DNA from: Escherichia coli
GTDB taxonomy: Bacteria; Pseudomonadota; Gammaproteobacteria; Enterobacterales; Enterobacteriaceae
Direction: 5' to 3' (one strand)
Assembly: GCF_045037415.1 (NCBI RefSeq)
Contig: NZ_CP173438.1
DNA: 64,000 nt
The translations under genes were made by a program, and so were the position numbers. Of the stretch, positions 3-15,332 are shown in pieces (position 1 is the stretch's first letter; every line of letters begins with the position of its first letter). The notes under the pieces were generated by a model that was not told the origin of the DNA, searched no databases, and saw nothing but the letters and a program-made list of their open reading frames with translations.

Positions 3-722
3 GTATTACAAATTACGCGTAGTGAACTGGCAGAGTCCAGCAAACTGGCGGCGCTTGGACAGATGGCAACCGAAATTGCCCATGAACAAAATCAACCGTT
101 AGCCGCCATTCACGCACTTACTGATAACGCGCGTACTATGCTAAAAAAAGAGATGTATCCACAGGTTGAACAGAATCTGAAACACATTATTTCCGTGATT
201 GAGCGGATGACGCAGCTCATTTCCGAACTTAAAGCATTTGCCTCGCGCCATCGCGTACCTAAAGGTTCTGCCGATGTCATCAAAGTGATGTATAGCGCCG
301 TGGCGTTACTTAATCACAGCATGGAGAAAAATAACATTGAGCGACGAATAAAAGCCCCATCCATGCCGTTATTTGTCAATTGCGATGAACTCGGTCTTGA
401 ACAGATATTCAGTAATTTAATTAGCAACGCCTTAGATTCTATGGAAGGTAGCTCTTACAAACGACTGGATATCGCCATTCGCCAGGCAAATAACAAAGTT
501 ATTATTACCATTAAAGACAGCGGTGGCGGTTTTGCACCTGAAGTTGTCGATCGCATATTTGAACCATTTTTTACCACTAAACGTAGAGGAATGGGGTTGG
601 GACTGGCAATAGTCAGCGAAATTGTCCGAAATTCGAACGGCGCACTCCACGCCAGTAATCATCCTGAAGGCGGCGCAGTAATGACATTAACCTGGCCTGA
701 ATGGGGAGAAAAACATGAATAA
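3..722 (+). CDS. kguS: sensor histidine kinase, C-terminal part (5' end lies upstream of the window)
   Basis: Open frame from window edge; H-box (ATEIAHE) and HATPase_c-like C-terminus (DSGGGF, GMGLGL); 8-bp overlap with downstream response regulator; context matches the alpha-ketoglutarate utilisation island described in UPEC. Confidence 0.6.
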   Translation, partial: VLQITRSELAESSKLAALGQMATEIAHEQNQPLAAIHALTDNARTMLKKEMYPQVEQNLKHIISVIERMTQLISELKAFASRHRVPKGSADVIKVMYSAVALLNHSMEKNNIERRIKAPSMPLFVNCDELGLEQIFSNLISNALDSMEGSSYKRLDIAIRQANNKVIITIKDSGGGFAPEVVDRIFEPFFTTKRRGMGLGLAIVSEIVRNSNGALHASNHPEGGAVMTLTWPEWGEKHE

Positions 723-2073
723 TAAATTCAGTGAAATTACTATAGTTTATATTGAGGATAGTGACGATGTACGTTTTGCCTGTGAACAAACGCTCACGCT
801 GGCTGGTTATCGCGTTATTTCCTGTTGCGATGCAGAACACAGTATTCCCCTTATTCAAAGTCAGGCCAACATTATTATACTGACCGATGTCAGGTTACCT
901 GGAATATCAGGACTAGAGCTCCTCAGTTACATCAACGAAATGGATAGCAAAATTCCGGTTATTTTAATTACCGGACACGGTGACGTGGAAATGGCGGTGG
1001 ATGCCATGCGTAATGGTGCATTCGATTTCATTGAGAAACCAAGTAGCTCAGATAAATTATTGAGTATTATTGCCAGAGCGGTAGAAAAACGGCGATTGGT
1101 TTTAGAAAATCAGCAATTACTGGCGAATCTGCAACAGGAAAATGGCCCGGTGCTGATTGGTCGTAGTCCGCAGATGCAGCAACTGCGTAAAATGATCCTT
1201 AATGTCGCAGATACCGGTGCCGATGTCCTTATTTATGGTGAAACAGGTTGTGGTAAAGAAGTCGTCGCCAGAATGCTGCATCACTGGAGTACCCGCCGTC
1301 AGGGGCAGTTTGTTGCCTTAAACTGTGCAGGCTTACCAGAAACGTTGTTTGAAAGCGAAATATTTGGTCATGAGGCGGGCGCATTTACCGGTGCGGTTAA
1401 AAAGCGTATTGGAAAAATTGAACATGCAAATGGTGGTACGTTATTTCTCGATGAAATAGAGGGAATGCCATCAGGAATGCAGGTAAAACTGCTACGTGTA
1501 TTGCAGGAAAGAACCATTGAACGATTAGGTGCCAATCAATTAATTCCGGTGAATTGCCGTGTTATTGCAGCGACCAAGGAAGATTTACTGCGTCGCAGCG
1601 AAGAACATCTGTTTCGTCTCGATCTCTATTATCGTCTGAATGTGGTTAGCCTGAATATTCCACCTCTACGCCAGCGACGAGAAGATATCCCTGAACTGTT
1701 TTACTGGTTCGCCAGTCAGGCGGCACAAAAATATAATCGTCCTCTGCCTGATATTTCTCCCATGTTACTGGCCTGGTTGCAGTCACAAAGTTGGCCTGGC
1801 AATGTACGTGAACTTAAACACAATGCAGAGCGTTTTGTTCTCGGTTTACTGACCCACCACCAGCCAGTGCCAATGACTCAGCAAGAAGAGAGTGGTCTTA
1901 CCGCCTGCATTGATGCTTTCGAGAAAAAGTTAATCGAAGATATGCTGCGACAAACGGAAGGCCAGGTCAGTTTGACAGCGCGGCTATTACAGCTGCCGCG
2001 CAAGACTTTATATGACAAACTCAACAAACATCAGATTCAACCGCAAGTTTATCGACCAGAATCATCCAGCTAA
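715..2073 (+). CDS. kguR: sigma54-dependent response regulator (NtrC family: receiver + AAA+ sigma54 activator + C-terminal HTH)
   Basis: 452 aa; receiver domain, Walker A GETGCGKE, GAFTGA motif, C-terminal Fis-type HTH; not identical to ZraR. Confidence 0.65.
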   Translation: MNNKFSEITIVYIEDSDDVRFACEQTLTLAGYRVISCCDAEHSIPLIQSQANIIILTDVRLPGISGLELLSYINEMDSKIPVILITGHGDVEMAVDAMRNGAFDFIEKPSSSDKLLSIIARAVEKRRLVLENQQLLANLQQENGPVLIGRSPQMQQLRKMILNVADTGADVLIYGETGCGKEVVARMLHHWSTRRQGQFVALNCAGLPETLFESEIFGHEAGAFTGAVKKRIGKIEHANGGTLFLDEIEGMPSGMQVKLLRVLQERTIERLGANQLIPVNCRVIAATKEDLLRRSEEHLFRLDLYYRLNVVSLNIPPLRQRREDIPELFYWFASQAAQKYNRPLPDISPMLLAWLQSQSWPGNVRELKHNAERFVLGLLTHHQPVPMTQQEESGLTACIDAFEKKLIEDMLRQTEGQVSLTARLLQLPRKTLYDKLNKHQIQPQVYRPESSS

Positions 2074-3135
2074 TGCTGATTCCTGAGGATGTAACCCCAA
2101 ATCGATACCTTTGCGGGCGTAATGTTCAACTACCCAGGACCAGAATGATACCGGGATCGTAATCATCTTCGCATTGCGTTCCCGGTTGGCAGCTTCTGGC
2201 ATACCGGGGTAAATCACCGGATTGCCGCCAGGTTGAGGCTGCGTAGCTAACAGATAATCCGCAAAGAACTGCCCTTTCTCCCCTGCCAGATCGGTGAATT
2301 GATCAGGATCGATAATCAACGCAAAAAGATGATTATGCGCAGATCCATCCGTCTGATGATCTTCGGCGATCGTGTCACCACCAGATAAGATCCCCGCCAT
2401 CATTTCAATCATCAGTGCCAGGCCAAATCCTTTATGCTCACCAAATGGCAGTAACGCCCCTGGAGGATTGCTGAATAACACCCCAGGATCATTGCTTGGA
2501 TTCCCCTGTGCATCAATCAATTGTCCCGGCGCGGCCTGCTTCCCGGTGGACGACATTACCCGTGCTTTATTTAGCGCCATGCTACTGGTGGCAAAATCAA
2601 CCAGAATCGGCGGACGCCCATCACTGAACGGCCAGGCAAAGCAGAAAGGGTTAGTGGTCATACGCGGTTCCGCACCGCCCCACGGGGCGACCAGTGCAGG
2701 ACGCCCGGTGACGTTACTCATGGCCAGCATCGCCAGGCCTTGATCAGCAACCATTTGCCCGTAATGCCCCATACGCCCTAAATGATGCGCATGGCACAAC
2801 GTTAACAGGCAAAAACCGCGGTGTTTTGTTTGTTCGATGGCAGCATTTACCGCCACTTTTCCGGCGTGTTGACCAAAGCCATTGTGGGCATGAAAACGCT
2901 GTAAATTACCTTCACTTGTTAAGCATTCCGGGCGGGCATTCGCGGTTACATCGCCACGAGCGATATTTTCCAGATATTTCGGTAGCAGCGTGACGCCGTG
3001 GCTGGCAAAGCCATAACGTTCCGCTTCAATCATATGTTCCGCCACATCCTGAGCGATATCGGCATCACAGCCATTAAGTTCCAGCAGCCCGGCAGCTAAC
3101 CAACGCACTTTTTCAACAGCAATTTGTAATGACAT
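2062..3135 (-). CDS. Ldh_2 family (malate/L-lactate dehydrogenase-like) NAD(P)-dependent oxidoreductase
   Basis: ORF 2062..3273 trimmed to ATG at 3135 (MSLQIAVEKV...) preceded by GAGGA RBS; longer ORF would overlap the upstream permease. Confidence 0.6.
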   Translation of the reverse strand: MSLQIAVEKVRWLAAGLLELNGCDADIAQDVAEHMIEAERYGFASHGVTLLPKYLENIARGDVTANARPECLTSEGNLQRFHAHNGFGQHAGKVAVNAAIEQTKHRGFCLLTLCHAHHLGRMGHYGQMVADQGLAMLAMSNVTGRPALVAPWGGAEPRMTTNPFCFAWPFSDGRPPILVDFATSSMALNKARVMSSTGKQAAPGQLIDAQGNPSNDPGVLFSNPPGALLPFGEHKGFGLALMIEMMAGILSGGDTIAEDHQTDGSAHNHLFALIIDPDQFTDLAGEKGQFFADYLLATQPQPGGNPVIYPGMPEAANRERNAKMITIPVSFWSWVVEHYARKGIDLGLHPQESALAG

Positions 3136-3146
3136 CGTTGGTTTCC

Positions 3147-4646
3147 TCACATTAGACCTAAAATTTTCCACCAGGTGGCGGCAAACAGTAGCAACAACAG
3201 GTAGCCGATTACCGTCAGGTACAGTCCCACACGGGTAAACTGGCGTGGCGTGAAGGTATCCGTACCCATACACACCATATTTTGTGGCGCGTTAATCGGC
3301 AGGATGAAGCCAAAACTGACACTGAAGGCGAGCAGAATGGTCATGCCGACCGGGTTAACGCCGAGTTCTGGCGGCAGACTGCTTAACAGGCTAATCAGGA
3401 TGGGCAGCAATGCGGCAGTTAGCGCAGTGGCACTGGCAAACCCCAGGTGAATGATTATCAAGAAAGCGGCGAGAATCGCGAAGATGGCAAGTGATGGTAA
3501 ACCGTCAAGACCAAAACCTTTCACCACATAGTTCGCCATCCATGAAGCTGCCTGTGTATCAAGCAACGTGGACCCCAGGCTGATACCAATACCAAACATC
3601 AGCAACGTGCCCCACTGCACACGTTTTTCGACCTCTTTCCAGCTCATTACACCGATGCCTGGCAGCAACATAATCGCCAGTCCGGCAAGGGTGACAGAGG
3701 TGGTATCAATACTGTGTAATTTTCCGCCAGTAGACCAAAAGAGCAGTAACAACAGCGAAATACCGATCAAGCGTTTTTCTTTACCGGTGGTTGGCCCTAA
3801 CTCTGCGAGTGCTTTTTTAATGGCCTCGCTCCCCCCTTCAACAGCTTCCGTTTCTGGCGGCAACAATTTACGTGCGAGGAAATAGAGGATCACCGACATG
3901 GTGAGGCTCCAGGGCGCGCCCGCTAACAGCCAGTCAAGCCAGCTGACAGAATGCCCGGCGCCGAAAGTTTTATTGATAAAACCGATAGAAAGCAGGTTTT
4001 GCGCCGACGAAGTTTGAATACCAACGTTCCAGATACTGGTCGCCTGGGCGATAACAATCATCATTGACGCCGCTAAACGTGAATGTTTATCCACCTTAAA
4101 TGCCGCAATGACCCCCATCATAATCGGCACCACGCAAGCCGTACGGGCAGTGGCACTGGGTACGACCAGGCTCAGGACGATGGTCACCACAATGGCACCG
4201 ATAATAATGCTGCGGCTACTGGCACCTATTTTCGACATAGTAAACAGCGCAATACGTTTATCCAGCCCGGTAATGGTCATTGCCGCCGCGATAAACATTG
4301 CTGCTGCCACCAGCGCCAGAGCAGAATTAGAAAAACCCGACAGAGTCATTTTCAGCGCTTTCGCGGTGCCAAGGATCGTGTCCGGGTGATTCATATCCGG
4401 GGCAAAACCAACCATAAAGATAATCAGTGCGGAAATAACAATTGCACTGGCGGTGTAATCCATCGCTTCGCTGATCCAGACAATAATGGCAAACACCAGA
4501 ATGGCGATCATATTTTGTCCGGCGACGGGCAAGGTATCGCCCAGAGGCAGAAGAGTAATAATAATTCCGGCAATGATCGCCAACCACAGGCCGGGATTAG
4601 GGATAATTCGACGCTTTTGTGGTGCGCCATGTGATATTGATGACAT
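3147..4646 (-). CDS. anion permease (ArsB/NhaD/DASS-type), putative dicarboxylate/oxoglutarate transporter
   Basis: ~500 aa polytopic membrane protein; first gene of a 2-gene unit behind a candidate sigma54 promoter; start ATG 4646 (GTG 4652 possible). Confidence 0.6.
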   Translation of the reverse strand: MSSISHGAPQKRRIIPNPGLWLAIIAGIIITLLPLGDTLPVAGQNMIAILVFAIIVWISEAMDYTASAIVISALIIFMVGFAPDMNHPDTILGTAKALKMTLSGFSNSALALVAAAMFIAAAMTITGLDKRIALFTMSKIGASSRSIIIGAIVVTIVLSLVVPSATARTACVVPIMMGVIAAFKVDKHSRLAASMMIVIAQATSIWNVGIQTSSAQNLLSIGFINKTFGAGHSVSWLDWLLAGAPWSLTMSVILYFLARKLLPPETEAVEGGSEAIKKALAELGPTTGKEKRLIGISLLLLLFWSTGGKLHSIDTTSVTLAGLAIMLLPGIGVMSWKEVEKRVQWGTLLMFGIGISLGSTLLDTQAASWMANYVVKGFGLDGLPSLAIFAILAAFLIIIHLGFASATALTAALLPILISLLSSLPPELGVNPVGMTILLAFSVSFGFILPINAPQNMVCMGTDTFTPRQFTRVGLYLTVIGYLLLLLFAATWWKILGLM

Positions 4647-4686
4647 ATTCACCTCATTGTGAAAAATAAAAAACCTGCCTGGCTAT

Positions 4687-4702
4687 TGCAGGAGCTATGC
4701 CA
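4687..4702 (-). promoter_or_regulatory. candidate sigma54 (-24/-12) promoter for permease/Ldh_2 operon
   Basis: Minus-strand TGGCATAGCTCCTGCA (GG and GC spaced 10) about 40 bp upstream of the start codon. Confidence 0.45.
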
Positions 4703-4762
4703 TCTTTAATTTTTTAATAATGCTTTGTTATTTAATGATTTTATTATTTATTCTTTTTATTT

Positions 4763-4783
4763 TGTGCGCGGTTTTCCGCACAG
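4763..4783 (-). promoter_or_regulatory. imperfect palindrome, candidate enhancer (UAS) for the sigma54 activator
   Basis: TGTGCGCGG-TTTT-CCGCACAG about 70 bp upstream of the candidate -24/-12 element in an AT-rich region. Confidence 0.35.
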
Positions 4784-4813
4784 TAAATAAAAGGTGATTC
4801 TCTTACCACACAG

Positions 4814-4839
4814 ATAAAAAAAGGGAGCGATATGCTCCC
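4814..4839 (-). terminator. rho-independent terminator after sucD-like gene
   Basis: Minus-strand hairpin GGGAGC-ATAT-CGCTCCC followed by T7 tract, 20 bp after the stop. Confidence 0.6.
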
Positions 4840-4857
4840 TTGATATTCATTTATGGA

Positions 4858-5730
4858 TTACTTAATAACATTCCATAACGTTTCGCCAAGCAACGCCGGG
4901 TTTCTTGTCCATGCCATGCCTGCTTTATCGAACGCACGGAATTTATCCTCTGCACTGCCGCTACCGCCAGAAATAATGGCTCCGGCGTGTCCCATGCGTT
5001 TTCCTTTTGGTGCAGTAACACCGGCAATATAACCTACGACCGGTTTATTCATATCATGGCGAATAAATTCCGCGGCCCGTTCTTCCGCATTACCACCAAT
5101 TTCACCGATCATAATTACCGCGTCTGTTTGCGGATCATTTTCGAATAAACGCAGCGCATCAATAAAGTTAGTCCCCGGAACCGGATCGCCGCCAATACCA
5201 ATACAGGTGGATTGCCCAAGTCCCAGCGCCGTGGTTTGCGCTACAGCTTCGTAGGTTAATGTACCGGAGCGGGAAACAATCCCAATACGCCCTGGGCGGT
5301 GGATTTCACCAGGCATAATCCCGATTTTGCACTCACCCGGCGTGATAACTCCTGGGCAGTTTGGCCCAATCAGCCGCACATCCGGGTGGCAGTCAAGCAG
5401 CCGACGAACTTTCACCATATCCAGTGTCGGTACACCTTCAGTGATCACCACAACCAATTTGACGCCAGCTTCAATAGCCTCAACAACAGAATCCAGCACA
5501 AACGGTGCAGGCACATAAATCACGCTGGCATCGGCCTCAGTTTGTCGCATCGCATCTTTCATTGAATCAAAAACCGGGCGATCCAGATGCCGTTGCCCGC
5601 CCTTACCAGGCGTCACTCCACCCACAATCTGCGTGCCATACGCAATAGCCTGCTCTGTATGAAATGTGCCGTTTTTGCCGGTAATGCCCTGCACCAGTAC
5701 CCGCGTGTGTTTGTTGATCAAAACGCTCAT
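4858..5730 (-). CDS. succinyl-CoA synthetase alpha subunit paralog (SucD-like)
   Basis: 290 aa, strongly SucD-like (CoA-binding GxTG, GHAGA phospho-His region). Confidence 0.85.
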
Positions 5731-5742
5731 CTTAACCTCCTG

Positions 5743-6912
5743 TTAATTCAGTAACGCAATGATGCGTTTCGCGGCATCATCCAGAGAATCGACGGCTTCC
5801 ACCGTCAGACCACTTTCTGCCAGTAACCGCTGCCCTTCGGCGGCGTTATTACCGGAGAGACGCACCACGACAGGCAGGGTGATGCTGGCCTCATTCAGAG
5901 CATGAATAATGGCTCTGGCGATCATGTCGCAACGGACAATCCCACCAAAAATATTAACCAGAATGGCTTTCACTTTGCTGTCGGAAACAATCAGCCGAAA
6001 GGCTTCACTGACGCGCTCCTGGGTTGCGCCACCGCCAACATCCAGGAAGTTTGCGGGTTGTTCACCGTATAGCTTGATGATGTCCATGGTTGCCATAGCC
6101 AGCCCTGCACCATTGACCATGCAGCCGATATTTCCGTCCAGCGAGACATAATTAAGATCAAGCTTCGCTGCCTGGCTTTCGCGTGGATCTTCCTGGGTTT
6201 CATCACGTAGCACCTGGAGTTCCGGGTGACGATACAGCGCGTTATCATCCAGCGATACTTTCGCGTCTGCACACATAAATTCGCCCGTTTCCCGCAACAC
6301 CAGAGGGTTAATTTCCAGCAGGGCAAAATCCAGTTCGTTAAAGGCTTTCCACGCCTGATTAACCAGGCGACTAAAGGCAGCAAATAGTCCGTGTTCCAGT
6401 TGCAGAACAGCAAACATTTCGCGGATATGGCAAGGCTGCACGCCTGTCAGTGGATCAATGCTGACACTGCTGATTTTCTCCGGTGTCTCATGGGCGACTT
6501 TTTCAATTTCCACACCACCTTCCGGGCTGACAATAAACGTGACCCGCTGGCTTTCACGATCCACCACCATGCCAAAATAGAGTTCCTGGCGTACCGGATA
6601 AATGTTTTCGCACAGTAAAATACTGCTGACATACTGTCCTTCTGGCCCGGTCTGATAAGTCACCAGTTGCGATCCCAACATTTGCTGTACAAAAGCCTGT
6701 GCTTCCGGCAGCTGCTTAAGCACTTTTACGCCGCCAGCTTTACCGCGCCCACCAGCATGTACCTGCGCTTTAAGTACCGCGCCTTTACTCGGGCAAGCAA
6801 TATGTTGCCAGGCATCTGCCAGTTGCGAAATCTGTTGGATAGCTATCTCTTTTGGACACGGCATCCCCATGCCAGCCAGTAACGATTTGGCCTGATACTC
6901 ATGTAAATTCAT
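5743..6912 (-). CDS. succinyl-CoA synthetase beta subunit paralog (SucC-like)
   Basis: 389 aa, ATP-grasp N-terminus MNLHEYQAK..., SucC-like throughout. Confidence 0.85.
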   Translation of the reverse strand: MNLHEYQAKSLLAGMGMPCPKEIAIQQISQLADAWQHIACPSKGAVLKAQVHAGGRGKAGGVKVLKQLPEAQAFVQQMLGSQLVTYQTGPEGQYVSSILLCENIYPVRQELYFGMVVDRESQRVTFIVSPEGGVEIEKVAHETPEKISSVSIDPLTGVQPCHIREMFAVLQLEHGLFAAFSRLVNQAWKAFNELDFALLEINPLVLRETGEFMCADAKVSLDDNALYRHPELQVLRDETQEDPRESQAAKLDLNYVSLDGNIGCMVNGAGLAMATMDIIKLYGEQPANFLDVGGGATQERVSEAFRLIVSDSKVKAILVNIFGGIVRCDMIARAIIHALNEASITLPVVVRLSGNNAAEGQRLLAESGLTVEAVDSLDDAAKRIIALLN

Positions 6913-6933
6913 ATATTCCCTCAGTGGTGTGTG

Positions 6934-8352
6934 TTATCCGTGTAATGCTTTATTATTCAAGGCCATTGCTGCTTCGTGGATGACTTCGCTTAATGTCGGA
7001 TGCGCATGGATCGCACAGGCAATATCCTCGCCAGAGGCGCTAAAAGTCATCGCCAGCGCAATTTCATTAATCAGCTCCGATGCCTGCGGGCCAACAATCG
7101 CTCCGCCAAGTACGCGGTCAGTGTGTTTATCACTGTATAACGTGCAACGCCCACCTTCCTGGCCTAATGCTAAGGCGCGACCGTTACCGGCAAACAGAGA
7201 ATTTCCTTTGTTAAAGACTCTGCCAGCGGCTTTCAGTGAGGCCTCGTTTTCCCCTACCCACGCAACTTCCGGTTGGGTGTAAATCACCGAAGGGATCAGC
7301 GCAAAATTAATCGGCTCTACCACCAGTCCGGCAATTTGATCAGCCACCACTACACCTTCAGCCATCGCTTTATGCGCCAGCATCGGCCCTCGCACGACAT
7401 CACCAATTGCCCACAGCCCGGCTTTCCCGGTACGGCATAAGTTATCGACGGCAATACCGCCACGGTTATCGGCTTCAAGACCGAGTTGCACGAGATCGAC
7501 ACCAGAAAGTCGCGGTACACGTCCAATGGCAAGAATTAATTTATCGAAGCGGCTTTCTTCTCGCTTCTCACCCTGCCGCCAGCGCACATGCACACCGTCA
7601 TCCCGTTGTTCAATAGCCTCAATCTCTACTGCCAGTTGCATTTTCATCCCACTGGCAATCATTGCTTTACGGACTTCGTTCGACAGGCGAGCTTCCAGTG
7701 CAGGCAAGAACGTTGGCGCCATCTCCAGCAACGTGACGTCTGAACCAACCCGATTCCACACAGACCCCAGTTCAAGGCCAATCACGCCAGCGCCGATCAC
7801 ACCGAGACGCGGCGGCACTTCGCTCAATGCCAGGGCGCCACGATTGTCGAGGATCTGTTGATTATCAATGGTAACGCCAGGCAGCTGACGCGGCTGAGAA
7901 CCTGTTGCAATCACTACATTACGGGCGTGAAGGTGTTGATCGTTTACACGTAATTGCCAAATCTCATCCTGAGCACATTCTAACGTTGCGAGGCCGCACA
8001 GGTGCTTCACTTTATTTTTCTTAAACAGCAAGCTGATGCCCATTGTCAGGCGGCTTACTATGGCGTCTTTACGTTGAATCATCGCAGCTGCATTGAAAGA
8101 TACGCCGTCAACATTAACGCCATGAATGCTCGCCTCATGCTGCACTTGCGCGTACAGTTCGGAAGATTGCAGCAACGATTTTGACGGAATACAGCCGACA
8201 TTGAGACACGTACCGCCCGGCGAAGGTTCGCCCTGTGCATTAACACCATCATCAATACATACTACGGAAAGCCCATTCTGCGCAGCCCGCAGTGCCGCTA
8301 CGTAACCACCTGGCCCCCCCCCCATAACTGCCACATCAAAAATTGTACTCAT
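6934..8352 (-). CDS. dihydrolipoyl dehydrogenase (E3) paralog
   Basis: 472 aa; FAD GGGPGGY motif, redox-active CxxxxC (GGTCLNVGCIPSK). Confidence 0.85.
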   Translation of the reverse strand: MSTIFDVAVMGGGPGGYVAALRAAQNGLSVVCIDDGVNAQGEPSPGGTCLNVGCIPSKSLLQSSELYAQVQHEASIHGVNVDGVSFNAAAMIQRKDAIVSRLTMGISLLFKKNKVKHLCGLATLECAQDEIWQLRVNDQHLHARNVVIATGSQPRQLPGVTIDNQQILDNRGALALSEVPPRLGVIGAGVIGLELGSVWNRVGSDVTLLEMAPTFLPALEARLSNEVRKAMIASGMKMQLAVEIEAIEQRDDGVHVRWRQGEKREESRFDKLILAIGRVPRLSGVDLVQLGLEADNRGGIAVDNLCRTGKAGLWAIGDVVRGPMLAHKAMAEGVVVADQIAGLVVEPINFALIPSVIYTQPEVAWVGENEASLKAAGRVFNKGNSLFAGNGRALALGQEGGRCTLYSDKHTDRVLGGAIVGPQASELINEIALAMTFSASGEDIACAIHAHPTLSEVIHEAAMALNNKALHG

Positions 8353-8363
8353 CGGCGCCCTCC

Positions 8364-9518
8364 TTAAAGATCCAGCAACAGTTGTTCCGGTGATTCCAGT
8401 AGCTCACGTATTGCCACCAATGTATGCACGGCTTCCTGACCATCGATAATGCGATGGTCATAGCTGAGAGCAAGGTACATCATGGGACGAATAACAACCT
8501 GACCGTTTTCTGCGACCGGGCGCGGCGTGATGGCATGCATCCCAAGAATGGCCGACTGCGGCGGGTTAATGATTGGCGTTGACATCATCGAACCAAAAGT
8601 ACCGCCGTTGGTGATAGAGAACGTGCCGCCCTGTAACGCCTCCAGCGGCAATTTGCCATTGCGTGCCTGTGTGGCGTATTCGGCAATTTGCCGTTCAATT
8701 TCCACCAAAGAGAGTGATTGCGCATTGCGTAACACAGGCACTACCAGGCCGCGGTTGCTGCTCACTGCAATGCCGATATCGCAATAATCACGCCAGATAA
8801 TCTCGTTGCCATCGACGCTGGCATTCACTACAGGGAAGCGCTCCAGCGCCCGGGTAACGGCCTTAACAAAGAAGGACATAAAGCCCAGCTTCACGCCGTG
8901 CTTCTCGGCAAAACGATCTTTCCAGCGGGCGCGTAAGTCCATCACGCTCTGCATGTTTACTTCGTTGAATGTGGTAAGAATGGCGTTATTTTGTTGGGAA
9001 GCCAGCAGACGCTCAGCAATTCGCTGACGTAAGCGCGACATCGGCTCACGACGTTCCTGACGAGCACCCGGTGTCAAGGGTTTAGCTGGCGCGATCTCCG
9101 CCACCCGTTCAGGCTGAATGGCTGGTGCAGGAGTAACGCGCTGCACATCCTCTTTCAGGATACGTCCATTTCTCCCGCTCCCCGCAACGTCAGCAAGTTC
9201 GACACCACTACGCTGTGCCTCCAGCCGTGCGGAAGGCATCGCCAGGGTTTCGGTGACTGGTGTGACGGTTTCTTCTATGACAGCTTGCGGCTTAAGATGC
9301 GCCAACAGTTGCGCGGACGTGACCGTGCTACCTTCGCTGACGATAATATTGCTTAACACGCCATCGTGCGGGGCCGGTATTTCCAGAATGACTTTATCGG
9401 TTTCCAGCTCGGCAATCACATCATCGCGTTTTACGTGCTCGCCTTCTTGTTTACACCAGGTTGTCAGCGTGCCTTCCGTGACAGATTCCGGTAATACAGG
9501 GACAGTAATTTCGATCAT
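8364..9518 (-). CDS. dihydrolipoyllysine succinyltransferase (E2) paralog (SucB-like)
   Basis: 384 aa; lipoyl domain (ETDKV), catalytic domain with DHRxxDG motif. Confidence 0.85.
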
Positions 9519-9550
9519 AAAATGTTCTCCTTATTATTTTTGTGCGCCTT

Positions 9551-12295
9551 TCATGGCTGAATATCTGCAAACGCAGCAGCAAGAAATTCGTCGATTTGTT
9601 GTTTATGTACACGCCCATACCCTGTCGCTGGTGCTGCCGCTGCCGGGCGGCCTGCATACTGCCAGTAAGGAGTGTTAATTTTCAGTGCCGCCAGCTCATG
9701 ACGAATCTGCCGCCACGCGCCCTGGTTTTCTGGCTCTTCCTGCAACCAAATCCATTCGCAGCAGTTCGGCCAACTCGCCAGAACATCATTCAGTTCTGCG
9801 ACCGGGAACGGGTAGAGTTGCTCCAGGCGAACAATCGCTACCTCGTCTTCATGCTCACGCTGCTTACGGGCTTCCAGTACGTCGTAATAGACCTGGCCGC
9901 TACACAAAATAACGCGCTTAACTTTCTGGGACTGATGCAATTGCGGATCGGTGATTACCGGTTTATAAGCGTCATCAGTGAATTCACAAAGCTCGCTCAT
10001 CGCGCCTTTAAACCGAAGTAAACGCTTACTCATCATTATCACTAACGGTTTGCGCATTGGGCGTAATGCCTGACCGCGCAACAAATGGAACATTTGTGCT
10101 GACTCACTGGGCATCACCACCTGCATGTTGTTTTCTGCGCACAGTTGCAGCCAGCGCTCAGGACGTGCGGAAGAGTGCTCCGGCCCTTGTCCGTCATAGC
10201 CATGCGGCAGAAGAATGGTTAAACCGCTATAGCGATCCCACTTGGTTTCGCCAGACGAGATAAATTGGTCAATAGCAACCTGAGCGCCGTTGGCAAAGTC
10301 ACCAAACTGTGCTTCCCAAATAACCAGTTGCTGAGGCGCAGACGTTGAATAGCCATATTCAAAGGCTAAGAGCGCTTCTTCATTAAGCACCGAATCATAA
10401 ACATCGAAAGATGCCTGACCAGCGCGGATATGCTGTAACGGCAGATAACGACGGGCTTCCGTTTGATGATGTACCACTGCATGGCGATGACTGAACGTGC
10501 CACGCCCTGAGTCTTCACCAGAAAGACGCACACCAACACCCGCATCCACAAGCGATGCATAGGCCAGCATTTCAGCCATTCCCCAGTCTACTGGCTGAGT
10601 ACCTGCGGCCATATCCTGGCGTAACGCCAGTTGCCGTTTAATGGTAGGATGTGCGACCACATCGGGTGGCAGTGTAGAAATGATTTCACCATACGCTGCC
10701 AGCTTTTGCCGAGGCAATGCCGTAGATACCGGGGCGCTCCAGTGAGGGTTGGTCAACCCATACCAGTTAGCGCTAAAAGAGTGAATTGCAGGTTTGAGAG
10801 GCTGCGGTTCACGTTTCTGGCAGCTATCCAGCCAGTCGCGATAGCGTGCCGTCATCTCATCTTGTTGCGCCTGAGTTAACAGGCCGCGGCGGGCAAGAGA
10901 TTCACCATAACGGGCGAGCGTACCAGGGTGAGCATCCACTGCCTGATACATTTGTGGCTGGGTAAGACGTGGCTCATCGCTTTCGTTGTGTCCGTGCTTA
11001 CGGAAGCAGCAAATATCGATGATGATGTCACGCCGGAAGGTGTCTCGCCATTCGCACGCCAGTTCCATTACCTGGCAAACAGCGTCAACGTCATCGCCAT
11101 TAACGTGGATAATTGGGGCCGCTACCATTTTGGCAATATCGGTGCAGTACCGTGAAGAACGCATATCCTGCAAGCGGGAAGTGGTGAAGCCAATCTGATT
11201 GTTAATCACCAGATGTAGCGTACCGCCAGTGCCGTAGCCCTGAGTCTGCGATAAGTTAAACGTGGTTTGGTTGACGCCGAGGCCGCCCAACGCGGAATCC
11301 CCATGAATAAGTACGCCCACCACTTTTGCCTGACCATCCTCACCACGGCGTTCCTGCCTGGCTCGCACCTGGCCCAGCACCACCGGATTCACGATCTCCA
11401 GATGTGAGGGGTTATACGCCAGCGCCACATGCAGCGAACCGGCAGGTGTTTCCAGATTGCTGGAATACCCCATGTGGTATTTCACATCGCCTGAACCACT
11501 GCCGATCGTCTGCTTGCCTTCAAACTCAGCAAAAAGCTGTGCCGGGTCTTTATTCAACAGATTAACCAGAACATTAAGTCTTCCCCGGTGCGCCATGCCA
11601 ATGACCATTTCCTCCACACCTTGCGCACGCAGGCGTTTTGTCAGCGTATCGAGCGCCGGGATTGCACTTTCGCCCCCTTCCAGAGAAAACCGTTTCTGCC
11701 CAACATAACGGGTATGCAGATAACGCTCTAACGTCTCTGCCGCCATCAGTTTTTCAAAACGAGCAATACAGGTTTGGGCATCAGCTTGTGGCGCATTGCT
11801 GCTCTCAATCCGTGATAACAACCAGTTGATTTCTTCACGATTTTCCAGATGAGCAAGTTCATAAGCCTGGCTACTGGCCCAGGCTTGCTCCAGCAGGTTA
11901 AGCAGTTGCTTAAGTGGCATTTGCGTGGTGTGTGCGCCAAAGGTGACGCTAAACTCCTGCAACAAGTCTTCTTCGCTTAATCCCCAAAAACCAGGCTGGA
12001 GGGAGGGAACGTCAGCCGGGGGATTCAAACCAAGTGGATCAAGCTTTGCGCGCAGATGCCCCTGCGTGCGCCAGGCATTGATCAGTTGTATTACCGCAGC
12101 CTGTTTTTTTAAGGTCGCACCGCTGATATTGTTATCACCGGATACGCTTTGGACAGTCAGTTCAGGTGAAAGAAAAAAACGCCGCCAGTCTTCCGGGAGT
12201 TGTTCCGGCGTACGCAACCAGGTCTGGTAGTACTCTTCAAGCCAGGTCGCGTTATCTCCACTAAGCAGCGTGCCGGGCGAGGTCATGTTCTCCAT
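9551..12295 (-). CDS. 2-oxoglutarate dehydrogenase E1 paralog (SucA-like)
   Basis: ORF 9551..12418 trimmed to ATG at 12295 (MENMTSPG...) with AGGAGA RBS; >900 aa, SucA-like. Confidence 0.8.
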   Translation of the reverse strand: MENMTSPGTLLSGDNATWLEEYYQTWLRTPEQLPEDWRRFFLSPELTVQSVSGDNNISGATLKKQAAVIQLINAWRTQGHLRAKLDPLGLNPPADVPSLQPGFWGLSEEDLLQEFSVTFGAHTTQMPLKQLLNLLEQAWASSQAYELAHLENREEINWLLSRIESSNAPQADAQTCIARFEKLMAAETLERYLHTRYVGQKRFSLEGGESAIPALDTLTKRLRAQGVEEMVIGMAHRGRLNVLVNLLNKDPAQLFAEFEGKQTIGSGSGDVKYHMGYSSNLETPAGSLHVALAYNPSHLEIVNPVVLGQVRARQERRGEDGQAKVVGVLIHGDSALGGLGVNQTTFNLSQTQGYGTGGTLHLVINNQIGFTTSRLQDMRSSRYCTDIAKMVAAPIIHVNGDDVDAVCQVMELACEWRDTFRRDIIIDICCFRKHGHNESDEPRLTQPQMYQAVDAHPGTLARYGESLARRGLLTQAQQDEMTARYRDWLDSCQKREPQPLKPAIHSFSANWYGLTNPHWSAPVSTALPRQKLAAYGEIISTLPPDVVAHPTIKRQLALRQDMAAGTQPVDWGMAEMLAYASLVDAGVGVRLSGEDSGRGTFSHRHAVVHHQTEARRYLPLQHIRAGQASFDVYDSVLNEEALLAFEYGYSTSAPQQLVIWEAQFGDFANGAQVAIDQFISSGETKWDRYSGLTILLPHGYDGQGPEHSSARPERWLQLCAENNMQVVMPSESAQMFHLLRGQALRPMRKPLVIMMSKRLLRFKGAMSELCEFTDDAYKPVITDPQLHQSQKVKRVILCSGQVYYDVLEARKQREHEDEVAIVRLEQLYPFPVAELNDVLASWPNCCEWIWLQEEPENQGAWRQIRHELAALKINTPYWQYAGRPAAAAPATGYGRVHKQQIDEFLAAAFADIQP

Positions 12296-12476: not shown

Positions 12477-13670
12477 TCACATCACCGCAGCAAACGCCTT
12501 TGCCACGCGATGCACATTTTGCGTGTTAAGCCCGGCGACACACATGCGACCGCTGGCGATGAGATAGACACCAAATTCTTCACGTAGTTGGTCAACCTGA
12601 GCGGCACTTAAACCGGTATAACTGAACATGCCGCGCTGATTAAGCAGATAATCGAAATTGCGTTCTGGCATCTCTGTGCTCAATACCTTCACCAGTTCCT
12701 GACGCATTGCCAGAATGCGAGTTCGCATCTCTTCTACTTCCACCAGCCAGCTGGCTTTCAATGCCTCGTCATTCAGCACCGCAGCCACCACCTGCGCACC
12801 AAAATTCGGCGGGCTGGAGTAGTTGCGGCGAACAGTTGCTTTCAATTGCCCCAGTACGCGGCCTGCGGCTTCGGCATCTTCACACAGAACAGAAAGTCCG
12901 CCGACGCGCTCGCCGTAAAGGGAGAAAATTTTCGAGAACGAATTGCTCACCAGAGCGGGTAATCCAGCGCTGGCAATGGCGCGAATGGCGTAGGCATCCT
13001 CTTCCATACCGGCACCAAATCCTTGATAGGCAATATCAAGAAATGGGATAAGCTCACGGGCTTTGAGAATTTCAATCACCGCATCCCACTGCTCATTAGT
13101 GAGATCGGCACCCGTTGGGTTGTGGCAACATGGATGCAGCAACACAATACTGCGGGCAGGTAATGTTTTCAGCGTCGCCAACAGGTCATTAAAGCGCACG
13201 CCGTTAGTCGCTTCGTCATACCAGGGGTAAGTACTTACTTCGAATCCAGCCCCGGCGAATATTGCTACGTGGTTTTCCCAGGTAGGATCGCTGACCCAGA
13301 CGCTTGATTCCGGGAAGTAGCGTTTCAGGAAATCTGCGCCCACTTTCAATGCCCCTGAGCCGCCAAGGGTTTGAATGGTTGCTACGCGCTGTTGTTGCAG
13401 TACCGGATGGTCCGCACCAAACAGCAGCGGCGCAATGGCATGGCGATAGCTGTTAAGCCCTTCCATCGGTAAATAAAGCGAAGCACCATGAGGCTGCGCA
13501 TTCAGGCGCGCTTCCGCATCCGCCACGGCTTTCAGTTGTGGAATAATTCCGTCTTCGTTGTAGTACAGACCGATACTTAAATTCACTTTGTCGCTGCGAG
13601 GGTCTTCTTTAAAACGCTCCATAAGCGTAAGAATCGGGTCGCCAGCGTAGGCGTCAACTTTTTGAAACAC
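12477..13670 (-). CDS. tyrB: aromatic amino acid aminotransferase
   Basis: TyrB-like 397 aa from GTG start at 13670 ([13 protein letters not shown]...); ORF-finder N-terminal extension removed. Confidence 0.9.
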
Positions 13671-13751
13671 GCGATGGTTCTCCAGGTTTACGGGCAGGTG
13701 GTTAAACCACAATAAACCGGAAGAAGGCGAAGATCGAGAGGATGTTCAAAG

Positions 13752-14780: not shown

Positions 14781-15310
14781 TGATACAAACCATACCAGGC
14801 GTTAATCCAGAACAGGAAATATAAGCCAGCGGTCAGGTTTAAACCGCGCGTCATATACAGTGGCACCGCCAGGGTATTCACCGCTAACCAGACGTACCAG
14901 TTTTCGATACGTCTTCCCATCAACATGAATTGTGCCAGAACGCTGAAGGTCAAAATCAACGAATCCAGCCAGGGTGCCCAAGCATTGGTAAAGGTGTGGA
15001 GTAAAAAGCCGTAACCGCCTGCCACGACGACAGCACAGAGCAACAAAAGGAAAAAGTGACTGGCTTGCGTTCGGCGCACCGGCAAGATGTCGCCACCCTG
15101 ACCTTTCAGCCAGTGGATCCAGCCAGTGATGCTGGTCACGATGAAGAATAACTGGAGCGTAACGTCGGCATAGAGTTGCACGGACCAAAAAACCCAGCCG
15201 TACAATATGCTGCCAATTATGCCGATCCACCATGTATGCACATTGTTTCTGGCAGCCAGCCAGACGGAAACCGCGTATGCCAGACACGCGGCGATTTCTG
15301 AATAAGACAT
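14753..15310 (-). CDS. PnuC-family nicotinamide riboside transporter-like membrane protein (short form)
   Basis: 185 aa, Trp-rich TM segments typical of PnuC; 22 bp after alr stop. Confidence 0.6.
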   Translation of the reverse strand: MSYSEIAACLAYAVSVWLAARNNVHTWWIGIIGSILYGWVFWSVQLYADVTLQLFFIVTSITGWIHWLKGQGGDILPVRRTQASHFFLLLLCAVVVAGGYGFLLHTFTNAWAPWLDSLILTFSVLAQFMLMGRRIENWYVWLAVNTLAVPLYMTRGLNLTAGLYFLFWINAWYGLYQWRKELQTS

Positions 15311-15332
15311 TGTCCCTCCCTGGAGACGAATA

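What the first reader, a model, noticed from the sequence alone, without database searches (positions are those of the whole stretch)
2062..3135. Ldh_2-family dehydrogenase co-transcribed with the permease: unassigned step of the island
Ldh_2 enzymes reduce or oxidise 2-oxo/2-hydroxy acids (malate, sulfolactate, ureidoglycolate, diketogulonate and others). One encoded next to a dicarboxylate-type permease and a 2-oxoglutarate dehydrogenase paralog operon suggests a 2-hydroxyglutarate / 2-oxoglutarate (or related 2-hydroxy-dicarboxylate) interconversion feeding the pathway. This is a hypothesis only.
Basis: inference. Interest (0 to 1): 0.4.

Follow-up and report, generated by a model that had tools for sequence, protein, structure and literature searches.

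The report
Unassigned dehydrogenase of UPEC ketoglutarate island
This is c5039, a real and conserved dehydrogenase gene of the known alpha-ketoglutarate-utilisation island of uropathogenic E. coli, always paired with the island's ketoglutarate transporter; its reaction has never been measured, and the best guess is that it reduces alpha-ketoglutarate to 2-hydroxyglutarate to dispose of NADH when oxygen is scarce.

Summary
Window 2062-3135 (minus strand) encodes a 357-aa Ldh_2-family oxidoreductase (Pfam E=3.8e-93). It lies 11 nt downstream of a DASS permease. The window is E. coli, and the gene is c5039 of the published KguS/KguR alpha-ketoglutarate (aKG) island, present in 1045 of 5426 complete genomes. 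Its family, its co-transcription with c5038 and its aKG/KguR-dependent induction were published in 2013. Its function is still called unknown.

New here: the permease-Ldh_2 pair is a conserved two-gene cassette. In 44 of 48 assessable loci of this Ldh clade, from gamma- and beta-proteobacteria, a 59-98% identical permease sits immediately upstream. None of 37 loci of the sister YbiC/HcxB-like clade has it. The clade includes the Cupriavidus necator "L-lactate dehydrogenase" that founded the family. Upstream signals are sigma-54 promoters in the gamma loci and FNR-type boxes in Achromobacter and Bordetella.

Published metabolomics show a hydroxyglutarate feature 6-fold lower in a kguR mutant. 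2-Hydroxyglutarate does not induce the operon.

Best explanation (about 0.45): an NADH-dependent reductase converting aKG to L-2-hydroxyglutarate as a redox sink, not a feeder step. The main rival is pyruvate reduction. No enzymology exists.

The parts
2062..3135 (-). c5039: Ldh_2-family NAD(P)H-dependent 2-oxo/2-hydroxy-acid oxidoreductase, 357 aa (the finding)
   Evidence: Pfam PF02615 E=3.8e-93. RefSeq WP_000058085.1. PDB best match 2g8y. Family catalytic and cofactor residues are conserved. dN/dS is 0.03-0.05.
3136..3148 (-). 11-nt permease-Ldh junction with Shine-Dalgarno GAGGA (3148-3144) overlapping the permease stop codon TGA (3149-3147)
   Evidence: Read directly from the sequence. 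No terminator-like site and no minus-strand promoter-like site was found here.
3147..4646 (-). c5038: DASS-family (Na_sulph_symp) dicarboxylate permease, the anaerobic alpha-ketoglutarate importer
   Evidence: Pfam PF00939 E=2e-117 and NCBIfam TIGR00785. RefSeq start is the ATG at 4646. Genetic evidence comes from PMC5318444. It is 59-98% identical to the permease upstream of every cassette ortholog.
4676..4702 (-). Sigma-54 promoter of the c5038-c5039 operon: TGGCAT-N5-CTGCA at 4702-4687, transcription start at the A at 4676 (30 nt before the ATG)
   Evidence: Sequence read. The same motif lies 50-54 nt before the permease start in all 7 unique gamma-proteobacterial loci. 5'-RACE transcription start, rpoN dependence and RpoN gel shift are published in PMC5318444.
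4755..4792 (-). Candidate KguR upstream activating site: 17-nt inverted repeat arms with a 4-nt spacer, centred about 97 nt upstream of the transcription start
   Evidence: the repeat finder I1, 82% complementary. The paper's figure legend mentions inverted repeats for KguR binding in this promoter. That this exact repeat is the site is my inference.
4812..4841 (-). Intrinsic terminator after c5037 (hairpin 4841-4821 plus T-run) that separates the two operons
   Evidence: I3, 8-bp perfect stem. Agrees with the two operons defined by RT-PCR.
4858..12295 (-). c5037-c5032: paralogs of SucD, SucC, Lpd, SucB and SucA (aKG to succinyl-CoA to succinate, yielding ATP and NADH)
   Evidence: Pfam and NCBIfam equivalog-level hits. 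RefSeq annotation.
715..2073 (+). kguR (c5040): sigma-54-dependent response regulator. Its 3' end overlaps the 3' end of c5039 by 12 nt, convergently
   Evidence: Pfam Response_reg + Sigma54_activat + HTH_8. Sequence read. PMC3694859.
1..722 (+). 3' part of kguS (c5041) sensor kinase; the window starts inside the gene
   Evidence: HisKA/HATPase_c. The full gene is 1821 nt in RefSeq. The full-length Pectobacterium ortholog has a dCache_1 sensor domain.

Best explanation
c5039 encodes a soluble Ldh_2-type 2-oxo-acid reductase, probably NADH-linked, that forms a functional unit with the DASS permease C5038. Under low oxygen with alpha-ketoglutarate (aKG) present, KguS/KguR and sigma-54 transcribe c5038-c5039 from one promoter (shown, published). 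C5038 imports aKG, probably by exchange with a product dicarboxylate (partly shown, published). The paralogous OGDH/succinyl-CoA synthetase (C5032-C5037) oxidises aKG to succinate, giving CO2, ATP and NADH (inferred from homology and mutant growth). C5039 then re-oxidises NADH by reducing a second aKG to L-2-hydroxyglutarate, which is excreted (inferred). The net reaction would be a redox-balanced dismutation: 2 aKG -> succinate + CO2 + 2-HG + ATP. In beta-proteobacteria the same permease-reductase cassette stands alone. In Achromobacter and Bordetella it sits behind FNR-type boxes, so there it would act as a low-oxygen electron sink.
For: (1) It is an Ldh_2 enzyme with the family's catalytic and cofactor residues intact: AllD H44/H116/T156/P158/D174/K224/G306 correspond to H46/H118/T161/P163/D180/K235/G311.
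(2) It shares an operon with the aKG importer. The gap is 11 nt, the promoter is sigma-54 type, and published RT-PCR, qRT-PCR and RNA-seq show aKG- and KguR-dependent expression.
(3) The cassette is conserved. In 44 of 48 assessable loci of this Ldh clade, a permease 59-98% identical to C5038 lies 11-67 nt upstream on the same strand. None of 37 sister-clade loci, including K-12 hcxB, has it. The permease's SAT and NAPQN motifs are invariant across both classes.
(4) Several signals point to low oxygen. Anaerobic induction in E. coli is published. Exact TTGAY-N4-ATCAA boxes lie upstream of the cassette in 16 of 16 Achromobacter and Bordetella loci, against a mean of 0.01 in shuffles. The C. necator ortholog is the founding 'L-lactate dehydrogenase' of the family; that it is a fermentative enzyme formed under restricted oxygen is my recollection.
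(5) aKG is the sole inducer; 2-hydroxyglutarate, glutamate, glutarate, fumarate and succinate do not induce.
(6) Published LC-MS shows a hydroxyglutaric acid feature at log2FC -2.59 and succinate at -1.66 in the kguR mutant grown anaerobically with aKG.
(7) There is family precedent for aKG to (S)-2-HG: ComC/MJ1425. By recollection, E. coli HcxB does the same in vitro.
(8) The clade has an invariant Ala315 where 27 of 37 YbiC-like sequences have Arg, next to the 2'-phosphate site defined in DpkA and AllD. That hints at NADH, the product of the co-induced Lpd.
Against: No enzyme assay and no single-gene c5039 mutant is reported in the papers I could search. The only characterised ortholog (C. 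necator Ldh, 43-45% identical) is assigned to pyruvate, not aKG. Archaeal ComC reduces aKG poorly, at 0.2% of the sulfopyruvate rate. The 2-HG drop in the kguR mutant is confounded by loss of aKG uptake; glutamate falls equally. The feature was labelled 'D-a-hydroxyglutaric acid', no chiral separation is described, and the source enzyme is unknown. Published anaerobic experiments mostly included TMAO, so a fermentative sink was not required there. The substrate-binding Arg48 of AllD and YiaK is Leu50 here, so substrate contacts cannot be transferred from solved structures. Active-site loops in the AF2 model have pLDDT below 50.
Confidence: 0.45

Rival explanations
1. C5039 is a fermentative NADH-dependent L-lactate dehydrogenase (pyruvate reductase), as its C. 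necator ortholog is named. It disposes of NADH by making L-lactate from pyruvate derived from aKG carbon. The link to the permease would be regulatory convenience or lactate/dicarboxylate handling.
For: C5039 falls in one monophyletic, syntenic clade with C. necator H16 Ldh (H16_A0666, 349 aa), which is named an L-lactate dehydrogenase in the cited 1993 title and carries an NAD(P)H L-LDH annotation in KEGG. The low-oxygen regulatory signatures fit any fermentative reductase. E. coli otherwise lacks an NAD-linked L-LDH (general knowledge).
Against: A DASS di/tricarboxylate carrier is strictly coupled to the gene in 44 of 48 loci, and its binding motifs are invariant with the aKG importer C5038. 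That is hard to explain for a monocarboxylate enzyme. aKG catabolism to succinate does not yield pyruvate directly. Induction is aKG-specific. Deleting H16_A0666 did not impair growth on L-lactate; this says little about the reductive direction. Identity to the C. necator enzyme is only 43-45%.
Confidence: 0.2
2. C5039 works oxidatively, which is the first reader's 'feeding' version. The permease imports a 2-hydroxy-dicarboxylate (L-2-hydroxyglutarate or L-malate). C5039 oxidises it with NAD+ to aKG or oxaloacetate, which enters the OGDH paralog pathway or the TCA cycle.
For: Ldh_2 enzymes are reversible in vitro, and some work oxidatively in vivo, such as AllD and ComC in the biosynthetic direction. 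In aerobic beta-proteobacteria a transporter-plus-dehydrogenase pair looks like a simple catabolic module.
Against: 2-HO-glutarate does not induce the operon. Island deletions do not affect growth on malate, fumarate or succinate. NAD-linked oxidation of 2-hydroxy acids is thermodynamically unfavourable, and known bacterial 2-HG dehydrogenases are flavoenzymes (established knowledge). Hydroxyglutarate goes down, not up, when the regulon is off. The FNR-type boxes and anaerobic induction point to a reductive role.
Confidence: 0.12
3. C5039 is an oxaloacetate reductase (type-2 malate dehydrogenase). It would work with an aKG/malate-exchanging permease, analogous to the plastid 2-oxoglutarate/malate translocator to which CitT-type DASS carriers are related.
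For: Many Ldh_2 members reduce oxaloacetate well; ComC does so at 31% of its best substrate. The title of Pos 1998, as cited by Cai 2013, relates the CitT family of carriers to the spinach chloroplast 2-oxoglutarate/malate translocator, and C5038 shows 49% similarity to CitT. Overexpression data hint that C5038 exports a C4-dicarboxylate (succinate; data not shown in PMC5318444).
Against: E. coli already has an anaerobically active Mdh. The reported counter-substrate hint is succinate, not malate. No malate change was listed in the kguR mutant metabolome. From memory, the C. necator ortholog is inhibited by oxaloacetate rather than using it.
Confidence: 0.1
4. C5039 acts on a substrate unrelated to aKG, as other Ldh_2 members do: cyclic imines (Pyr2C/Pip2C), ureidoglycolate, 2,3-diketogulonate, sulfolactate or aromatic 2-oxo acids. 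It would be a passenger in the island.
For: The family is notoriously diverse in substrate. Scores fall below every NCBIfam equivalog cut-off. The substrate-contact residues of solved members are not conserved.
Against: The permease-Ldh_2 pairing is ancient and nearly obligate. The gene is under strong purifying selection. It is among the most strongly KguR-dependent transcripts: the aKG-utilisation group that includes c5039 has mean log2FC -7.99. None of the accessory genes of those other pathways is nearby.
Confidence: 0.08

Closest known systems
c5039 of uropathogenic E. coli CFT073 (KguS/KguR island c5032-c5041; Cai et al. 2013, 2017; 2021 transcriptome/metabolome paper)
   Same: Apparently the same gene, identified by context rather than by comparison with the CFT073 sequence itself. 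It sits in the same position between kguR and c5038, in an island inserted between tyrB and aphA. The family assignment, the two-operon structure, the sigma-54 promoter and the aKG/KguR dependence all match.
   Different: Nothing differs in sequence context. What differs is knowledge: the papers never assign a reaction and never study c5039 alone. They did not note the conserved cassette outside E. coli, nor the link to their own hydroxyglutarate measurement.
Cupriavidus necator (Alcaligenes eutrophus) H16 Ldh, H16_A0666, founding member of Pfam Ldh_2
   Same: It belongs to the same monophyletic clade. It has the same synteny, with a DASS permease 60-63% identical to C5038 about 14-20 nt upstream. 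Its size is similar at 349 aa. From memory, it is expressed under oxygen limitation.
   Different: It is only 43-45% identical. No KguSR system and no OGDH/SCS paralogs lie nearby. Its assigned substrate is pyruvate. Whether it also reduces aKG I could not verify.
E. coli HcxB (YbiC, b0801; PDB 2g8y), hydroxycarboxylate dehydrogenase B
   Same: It is the closest solved structure (E=4.9e-52; Foldseek E=1.3e-26). It shares the SHG and HHxGR motifs and the loop insertion relative to AllD. By recollection of UniProt and Sevin 2017, it reduces 2-oxoglutarate and aromatic 2-oxo acids with NADPH in vitro.
   Different: It is a paralog, not an ortholog. C5039 scores 276.8 bits against the 336-bit cut-off of the YbiC equivalog model. 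HcxB is 29-34% identical and sits in the sister clade, which never has the permease. Eleven clade-specific residues differ, including Arg68, Lys93, Arg174, Asn189 and Ala315.
Archaeal ComC / L-2-hydroxycarboxylate dehydrogenase (MJ1425, EC 1.1.1.337; PDB 2x06)
   Same: Same fold and catalytic histidines. It is NADH-preferring and (S)-specific, and it accepts aKG to give (S)-2-hydroxyglutarate.
   Different: About 25% identity. It is a biosynthetic enzyme for coenzyme M and methanopterin. aKG is a poor substrate for it. C5039 scores far below the NCBIfam sulfolactate dehydrogenase cut-off, 137.7 against 500.
Precursor/product-exchange fermentation modules (CitT citrate/succinate antiport with citrate lyase; malolactic MleP-MleS)
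   Same: This is a 'works like' comparison. A carboxylate exchanger is co-expressed with the cytoplasmic enzyme that converts the imported acid, under anaerobic control. C5038 shows 49% similarity to CitT, and substrate-product exchange has been proposed for it.
   Different: No exchange of aKG for 2-HG has been measured. The proposed enzyme is a redox sink rather than a lyase or decarboxylase.

Membership tests
Ldh_2 / type-2 malate-L-lactate dehydrogenase superfamily (Pfam PF02615) | Full-length match to PF02615 above the gathering score | tested here: met
   312.7 bits against a cut-off of 38.8, E=3.8e-93, residues 6-332 on model positions 2-329 of 333.
Ldh_2 / type-2 malate-L-lactate dehydrogenase superfamily (Pfam PF02615) | Invariant catalytic histidines and cofactor-binding residues (AllD His44, His116, Thr156, Pro158, Asp174, Lys224, Gly306) | tested here: met
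   These map to H46, H118, T161, P163, D180, K235 and G311. All are conserved in C5039 and in at least 97% of 86 clade sequences.
Ldh_2 / type-2 malate-L-lactate dehydrogenase superfamily (Pfam PF02615) | Non-Rossmann three-domain fold shared with solved members | tested here: met
   AF2 model with pLDDT 74.9 and pTM 0.75. All 27 PDB hits at E<=0.001 are Ldh_2 structures with TM 0.64-0.73. Active-site loops are low-confidence.
Ldh_2 / type-2 malate-L-lactate dehydrogenase superfamily (Pfam PF02615) | NAD(P)H-dependent oxidoreduction of a 2-oxo/2-hydroxy acid or cyclic imine | not testable with these tools
   Needs an enzyme assay. None is published for c5039 in the papers searched.
HcxB/YbiC equivalog (NCBIfam NF007504 / PRK10098) | Score above the curated equivalog cut-off, and the same clade as K-12 hcxB | tested here: not met
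   276.8 bits, below the 336 cut-off. K-12 HcxB falls in the sister clade of the NJ tree and lacks the upstream permease.
AllD ureidoglycolate dehydrogenase | Equivalog score, and substrate residues Arg48, Ser140 and Asp141 | tested here: not met
   129 bits against 496. Arg48 aligns with Leu50. The Ser140-Asp141 loop is replaced by Val142 plus a 3-residue insertion (TGR).
DlgD/YiaK 2,3-diketo-L-gulonate reductase and ComC sulfolactate dehydrogenase | Equivalog score | tested here: not met
   145.2 against 316, and 137.7 against 500.
DASS-linked Ldh clade (orthologs of C. necator Ldh H16_A0666) | Monophyly with C. necator Ldh, and a C5038-type DASS permease immediately upstream on the same strand | tested here: met
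   NJ tree. The permease is 100% identical and 11 nt upstream in the window. It is present in 44 of 48 assessable clade loci and in 0 of 37 outside the clade.
DASS-linked Ldh clade (orthologs of C. necator Ldh H16_A0666) | L-lactate dehydrogenase (pyruvate reductase) activity | not testable with these tools
   Only the C. necator enzyme was characterised (Jendrossek 1993, cited). Identity to it is 43-45%.
KguS/KguR alpha-ketoglutarate utilisation island (c5032-c5041) | Gene order kguS-kguR / ldh-DASS-sucD-sucC-lpd-sucB-sucA, inserted between aphA and tyrB | tested here: met
   RefSeq annotation of a 100%-identical genome. The ORFs and domains are in the window. The description in PMC3694859 matches.
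KguS/KguR alpha-ketoglutarate utilisation island (c5032-c5041) | Sigma-54 promoter with a transcription start 30 nt upstream of c5038 | tested here: met
   TGGCAT-N5-CTGCA at 4702-4687, with an A at 4676. The motif is conserved in 7 gamma loci. The experimental basis is in PMC5318444.
KguS/KguR alpha-ketoglutarate utilisation island (c5032-c5041) | aKG- and KguR-dependent, anaerobically enhanced expression of c5039 | not testable with these tools
   Published qRT-PCR and RNA-seq show it. It was not re-measured here.

The most novel reading that the evidence does not exclude
The permease-Ldh_2 pair is a self-contained 'alpha-ketoglutarate redox valve'. C5038 would exchange external aKG for internal L-2-hydroxyglutarate. 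C5039 would reduce aKG with NADH, so host aKG serves as a non-respiratory electron acceptor. This would be an unrecognised low-oxygen fermentation module shared by uropathogenic E. coli, Pectobacterium, a Vibrio species (Vibrio sp. Y2-5), Bordetella, Achromobacter and Cupriavidus. It would also mean that the physiological substrate of the classic C. necator 'L-LDH' has been misassigned. In the kidney it would make UPEC a local producer of L-2-hydroxyglutarate, an inhibitor of host aKG-dependent dioxygenases.
Probability: 0.2. Interest if true: 0.7.

Novelty: new member of a known kind. Interest (0 to 1): 0.4.

Why it matters
[quoted passage not shown] The published pathway model (transport, OGDH paralog, succinyl-CoA synthetase paralog) produces NADH with no stated way to re-oxidise it anaerobically, and it leaves one strongly induced gene unexplained.

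If C5039 is the NADH sink, the island becomes a complete, redox-balanced aKG fermentation. Its by-product, L-2-hydroxyglutarate, is biologically active in host cells.

Independently of the substrate, the strict pairing of this Ldh clade with a C5038-type carrier across gamma- and beta-proteobacteria has two consequences. It gives a transferable functional context for dozens of species' genes (and the many homologs found) annotated only as 'Ldh family oxidoreductase' or 'L-lactate dehydrogenase'. It also questions the physiological substrate of the enzyme that founded the family. A few standard experiments would settle all of this.

Tried and rejected
- **Direct evidence on c5039.** Searching for c5039, KguS and KguR found only three relevant primary papers. 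None contains an assay or a single-gene mutant.
- **HcxB/YbiC activity.** I could not retrieve Sevin et al. 2017. HcxB activity on 2-oxoglutarate is therefore cited from memory only. The RefSeq product name was verified.
- **C. necator Ldh substrate range.** The primary papers (Steinbuchel 1983, Jendrossek 1993) are not in the library. I only confirmed the gene identity, that its deletion does not impair growth on L-lactate, and the citation.
- **Pocket-based substrate prediction.** The tools return no model coordinates, and the active-site loops (residues 147-160, 185-193, 220-238) have pLDDT below 50. Alignment to AllD shows that the substrate residues are not conserved, so no substrate could be read from sequence.
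- **Cofactor preference.** The 2'-phosphate site is ambiguous. Glu314 is shared with the YbiC-like clade, and only the Ala315 versus Arg contrast hints at NADH.
- **Exceptions to the pairing.** The neighbours of the three clear exceptions (L045, L049, L051) gave no informative Pfam hits. L045 looks like a secondary deletion between the ModE-like regulator and the transglycosylase gene.
- **Sigma-54 promoters in the beta clade.** None lies at the conserved position.
- **Mobility.** The cassette is essentially chromosomal. It occurs on 2 plasmid-labelled records only, one of them 834 kb.
- **The longer GTG-start ORF (2062-3273).** Rejected as the gene model because it overlaps the permease and disagrees with homologs and RefSeq.


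Full report
**What is in the sequence**

The window is E. coli chromosome. The first 6 kb match 1045 of 5426 complete E. coli genomes, and 1022 of these are at least 99% identical.

On the minus strand an ORF ends at 2062. The mechanical ORF list starts it at a GTG at 3273, but that extension overlaps the upstream permease. The ATG at 3135 gives 357 aa and has a GAGGA Shine-Dalgarno 8 nt upstream that overlaps the permease stop codon. It is also the RefSeq start, for WP_000058085.1, 'Ldh family oxidoreductase'.

The protein matches Pfam Ldh_2 end to end, with E=3.8e-93. Its closest solved relative is E. coli YbiC (2g8y, E=4.9e-52). An AlphaFold model (pLDDT 74.9) matches only Ldh_2-family structures at E<=0.001.

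The gene is full length in all 1045 genomes that carry it, and at least 99% identical in 1042. It is under strong purifying selection: dN/dS is 0.047 against E. albertii and 0.026 against Citrobacter.

**Surroundings**

Reading along the minus strand, the genes are as follows:

| Gene | Window coordinates |
|---|---|
| sucA-like E1 | 9551-12295 |
| sucB-like E2 | 8364-9518 |
| lpd-like E3 | 6934-8352 |
| sucC-like | 5743-6912 |
| sucD-like | 4858-5730 |
| DASS permease | 3147-4646 |
| Ldh_2 gene (the finding) | 2062-3135 |

- An intrinsic terminator hairpin lies at 4841-4821.
- A 17-nt inverted repeat lies at 4755-4792.
- A sigma-54 promoter, TGGCAT-N5-CTGCA, lies at 4702-4687.
- The Ldh_2 gene starts 11 nt after the permease stop.

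On the plus strand, kguS (truncated by the window edge) and kguR end convergently. The kguR stop overlaps the Ldh stop by 12 nt. The island sits between aphA and tyrB.

**It is a published gene**

This is the KguS/KguR island c5032-c5041 of UPEC CFT073, and the finding is c5039.

Cai et al. [quoted passage not shown] They also report the following:
- RT-PCR shows that c5032-5037 is one operon and c5038-5039 another.
- All of these genes are induced by aKG through KguR.
- Deleting c5038-5039 impairs anaerobic growth on aKG.

The 2017 paper (PMC5318444) maps the c5038 transcription start 30 nt upstream of the start codon. It shows rpoN dependence and proposes that C5038 works by substrate-product exchange. 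The A at 4676 and the -24/-12 elements in the window fit exactly.

The 2021 paper (PMC8716947) lists c5039 among the most KguR-dependent transcripts.

None of these papers studies c5039 alone or assigns it a reaction.

**What the comparative evidence adds**

Homologs fall into three tiers:
- 61-97% identical in Escherichia, Citrobacter, Klebsiella, Salmonella, Pectobacterium, Brenneria and a Vibrio.
- 43-51% identical in Burkholderiales. This tier includes the C. necator H16 'L-lactate dehydrogenase' (H16_A0666, 349 aa), the enzyme on which the Ldh_2 family was founded (Jendrossek 1993, cited).
- 42% identical or less: YbiC/HcxB-like proteins.

In the Vibrio sp. Y2-5 and Pectobacterium loci, the permease-Ldh_2 pair sits next to KguSR and OGDH/SCS paralogs, and the pair stays intact even where gene order is rearranged. 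In Bordetella, Paraburkholderia and Cupriavidus the pair stands alone. Those permeases are 59-63% identical to C5038, which is more conserved than the dehydrogenases. The SAT and NAPQN transport motifs are invariant.

I then scanned one genome per GTDB species with the clade alignment, which returned 80 loci, and ran tblastn with all island proteins.
- 44 of 48 assessable loci in the clade carry a C5038-type permease 11-67 nt upstream on the same strand.
- None of 37 loci in the sister clade does. That clade includes K-12 hcxB.
- A neighbour-joining tree shows that the permease-linked sequences are monophyletic.
- KguSR and the OGDH/SCS paralogs occur only in the gamma subclade.

The ancestral unit is therefore the two-gene cassette. 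The UPEC island is that cassette joined to a dedicated oxidative branch and a sensor.

**Regulatory signatures**

All seven unique gamma loci have TGGCAY-N5-CTGCA 50-54 nt before the permease start. No beta-clade locus does.

Instead, all 16 Achromobacter and Bordetella loci have an exact TTGAY-N4-ATCAA box upstream, typical of FNR/ANR-type regulators (general knowledge). In the Achromobacter loci and one Bordetella locus it lies about 127-136 nt before the permease start; in the other two Bordetella loci it lies 73 and 79 nt before it. The half-sites are conserved while the 4-nt spacer varies. Shuffled sequences give a mean of 0.01 loci with such a box.

E. coli shows published anaerobic, FNR/ArcA-dependent induction. 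From memory, C. necator Ldh forms under oxygen restriction. Together these point to a low-oxygen function for the cassette as a whole. The box is a prediction, not a demonstrated site.

**Active site**

The family's catalytic and cofactor residues, as defined for AllD in PMC3527362, are all present: H46, H118, T161, P163, D180, K235 and G311.

The substrate-contact residues are not conserved.
- AllD Arg48 aligns with Leu50.
- The Ser140-Asp141 loop carries a 3-residue insertion containing Arg145.
- Met251 aligns with Asp259, and Arg259 with His267.

Eleven positions separate the permease-linked clade from the YbiC-like clade. They include three extra basic residues (Arg68, Lys93, Arg174) and Ala315, where 27 of 37 YbiC-like sequences have Arg. 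Position 315 adjoins the site that discriminates NADH from NADPH in AllD and DpkA. I read this as a weak hint of NADH use.

C5039 falls below every NCBIfam equivalog cut-off, including the YbiC model at 276.8 against 336. It is a distinct subfamily, and its substrate cannot be inferred by homology transfer.

**Which reaction?**

The specific proposal is aKG + NADH -> L-2-hydroxyglutarate. The support is as follows.
- The regulon responds only to aKG.
- The partner carrier is the aKG importer.
- The co-induced OGDH paralog, with its own Lpd, makes NADH that must be re-oxidised anaerobically (inference).
- Family members reduce aKG to (S)-2-HG.
- NAD-linked 2-oxo-acid reduction is strongly favoured thermodynamically (established knowledge).
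- In the authors' own LC-MS data, a feature annotated 'D-a-hydroxyglutaric acid' (MW 148.036; no chiral separation is described) is log2 -2.59 lower in the kguR mutant, alongside succinate at -1.66. The authors did not discuss this.

The net scheme would be 2 aKG -> succinate + CO2 + 2-HG + ATP, with both products available for exchange against incoming aKG.

The weaknesses are as follows.
- The 2-HG decrease could simply reflect lost aKG uptake, since glutamate drops equally.
- The only characterised ortholog is assigned to pyruvate.
- ComC handles aKG poorly.
- Most published anaerobic cultures contained TMAO.
- There is no enzymology.

I put the specific mechanism at about 0.45. The more general statement, a reductive NAD(P)H-consuming 2-oxo-acid reductase coupled functionally to the DASS carrier, I put at about 0.8.

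**Rivals**

| Rival | Confidence | Main argument |
|---|---|---|
| Pyruvate reductase (L-LDH) | 0.2 | Supported by orthology with C. necator Ldh. Hard to square with obligate pairing to a dicarboxylate carrier. |
| Oxaloacetate reductase with aKG/malate exchange | 0.1 | No specific support found. |
| An unrelated substrate | 0.08 | Argues against the conserved pairing and strong KguR dependence. |

**Verdict**

The gene is a new, uncharacterised member of a known enzyme family within a known island. The additional value lies in three things: the conserved permease-Ldh_2 cassette, its low-oxygen signatures, and the overlooked hydroxyglutarate datum. Together they turn 'unknown function' into a sharply testable hypothesis.

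Noticed in passing
L005:6446-9050 (C. necator), L007:6497-9056 (Bordetella), L008:6454-9053 (Paraburkholderia): The classic C. necator 'L-lactate dehydrogenase' (H16_A0666) and its Burkholderiales orthologs lie directly downstream of a DASS carrier about 60% identical to the UPEC alpha-ketoglutarate importer. The stored context table showed no Pfam hit for the C. necator carrier, but hmmscan gives Na_sulph_symp at E=9e-149. The physiological substrate of the founding Ldh_2 enzyme may deserve re-examination.
   Followed up: partly
Upstream of the DASS gene in L007, L017, L018, L020-L025, L027, L029-L031, L036, L037, L041: An exact FNR/ANR-type box TTGAY-N4-ATCAA lies upstream of the permease start in all 16 Achromobacter and Bordetella loci. 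It is about 127-136 nt upstream in the Achromobacter loci and one Bordetella locus, and 73 and 79 nt upstream in the other two Bordetella loci. The half-sites are conserved and the spacer is variable. Paraburkholderia, Pandoraea and Cupriavidus show no such box.
   Followed up: partly
PMC8716947 Table 2 (literature, not sequence): A hydroxyglutaric acid feature (MW 148.036) is 6-fold lower in the kguR mutant. The authors do not comment on it or connect it with c5039.
   Followed up: partly
L093 (strain 21221) and L094 (strain Esc20); equivalent to window about 4330-4860: Rare IS insertions occur in the island. ISKpn26 splits the permease gene in one genome. An IS1 sits in the c5037-c5038 intergenic region, between the terminator and the permease gene, in at least one genome (L094); a second genome (H2) shows the same 776-nt gap but was not inspected. 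Either could silence or rewire c5038-c5039 expression.
   Followed up: partly
window 2062-2073: The stop-proximal 12 nt of kguR (plus strand) and c5039 (minus strand) overlap convergently, leaving no room for a terminator. Pectobacterium has the same arrangement in one gene call (an 11-nt overlap in L003), while the other call (L004) shows no overlap. Convergent read-through could produce antisense RNA across both genes.
   Followed up: no
L013 (contig labelled 'MAG: Flavobacteriia bacterium'): This contig carries the same gene arrangement, with the same percent identities to the E. coli island proteins, as the Vibrio sp. Y2-5 locus (L001/L002). The contig is probably mis-binned.
   Followed up: no
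window 12477-16412: Next to the island lie tyrB, an AAA-family ATPase gene (13752-14780, NadR-like by my reading) overlapping pnuC (14753-15310), and a 359-aa ORF that looks like an alanine racemase by eye (not scanned). This looks like ordinary core-genome context and marks the island's right boundary.
   Followed up: no
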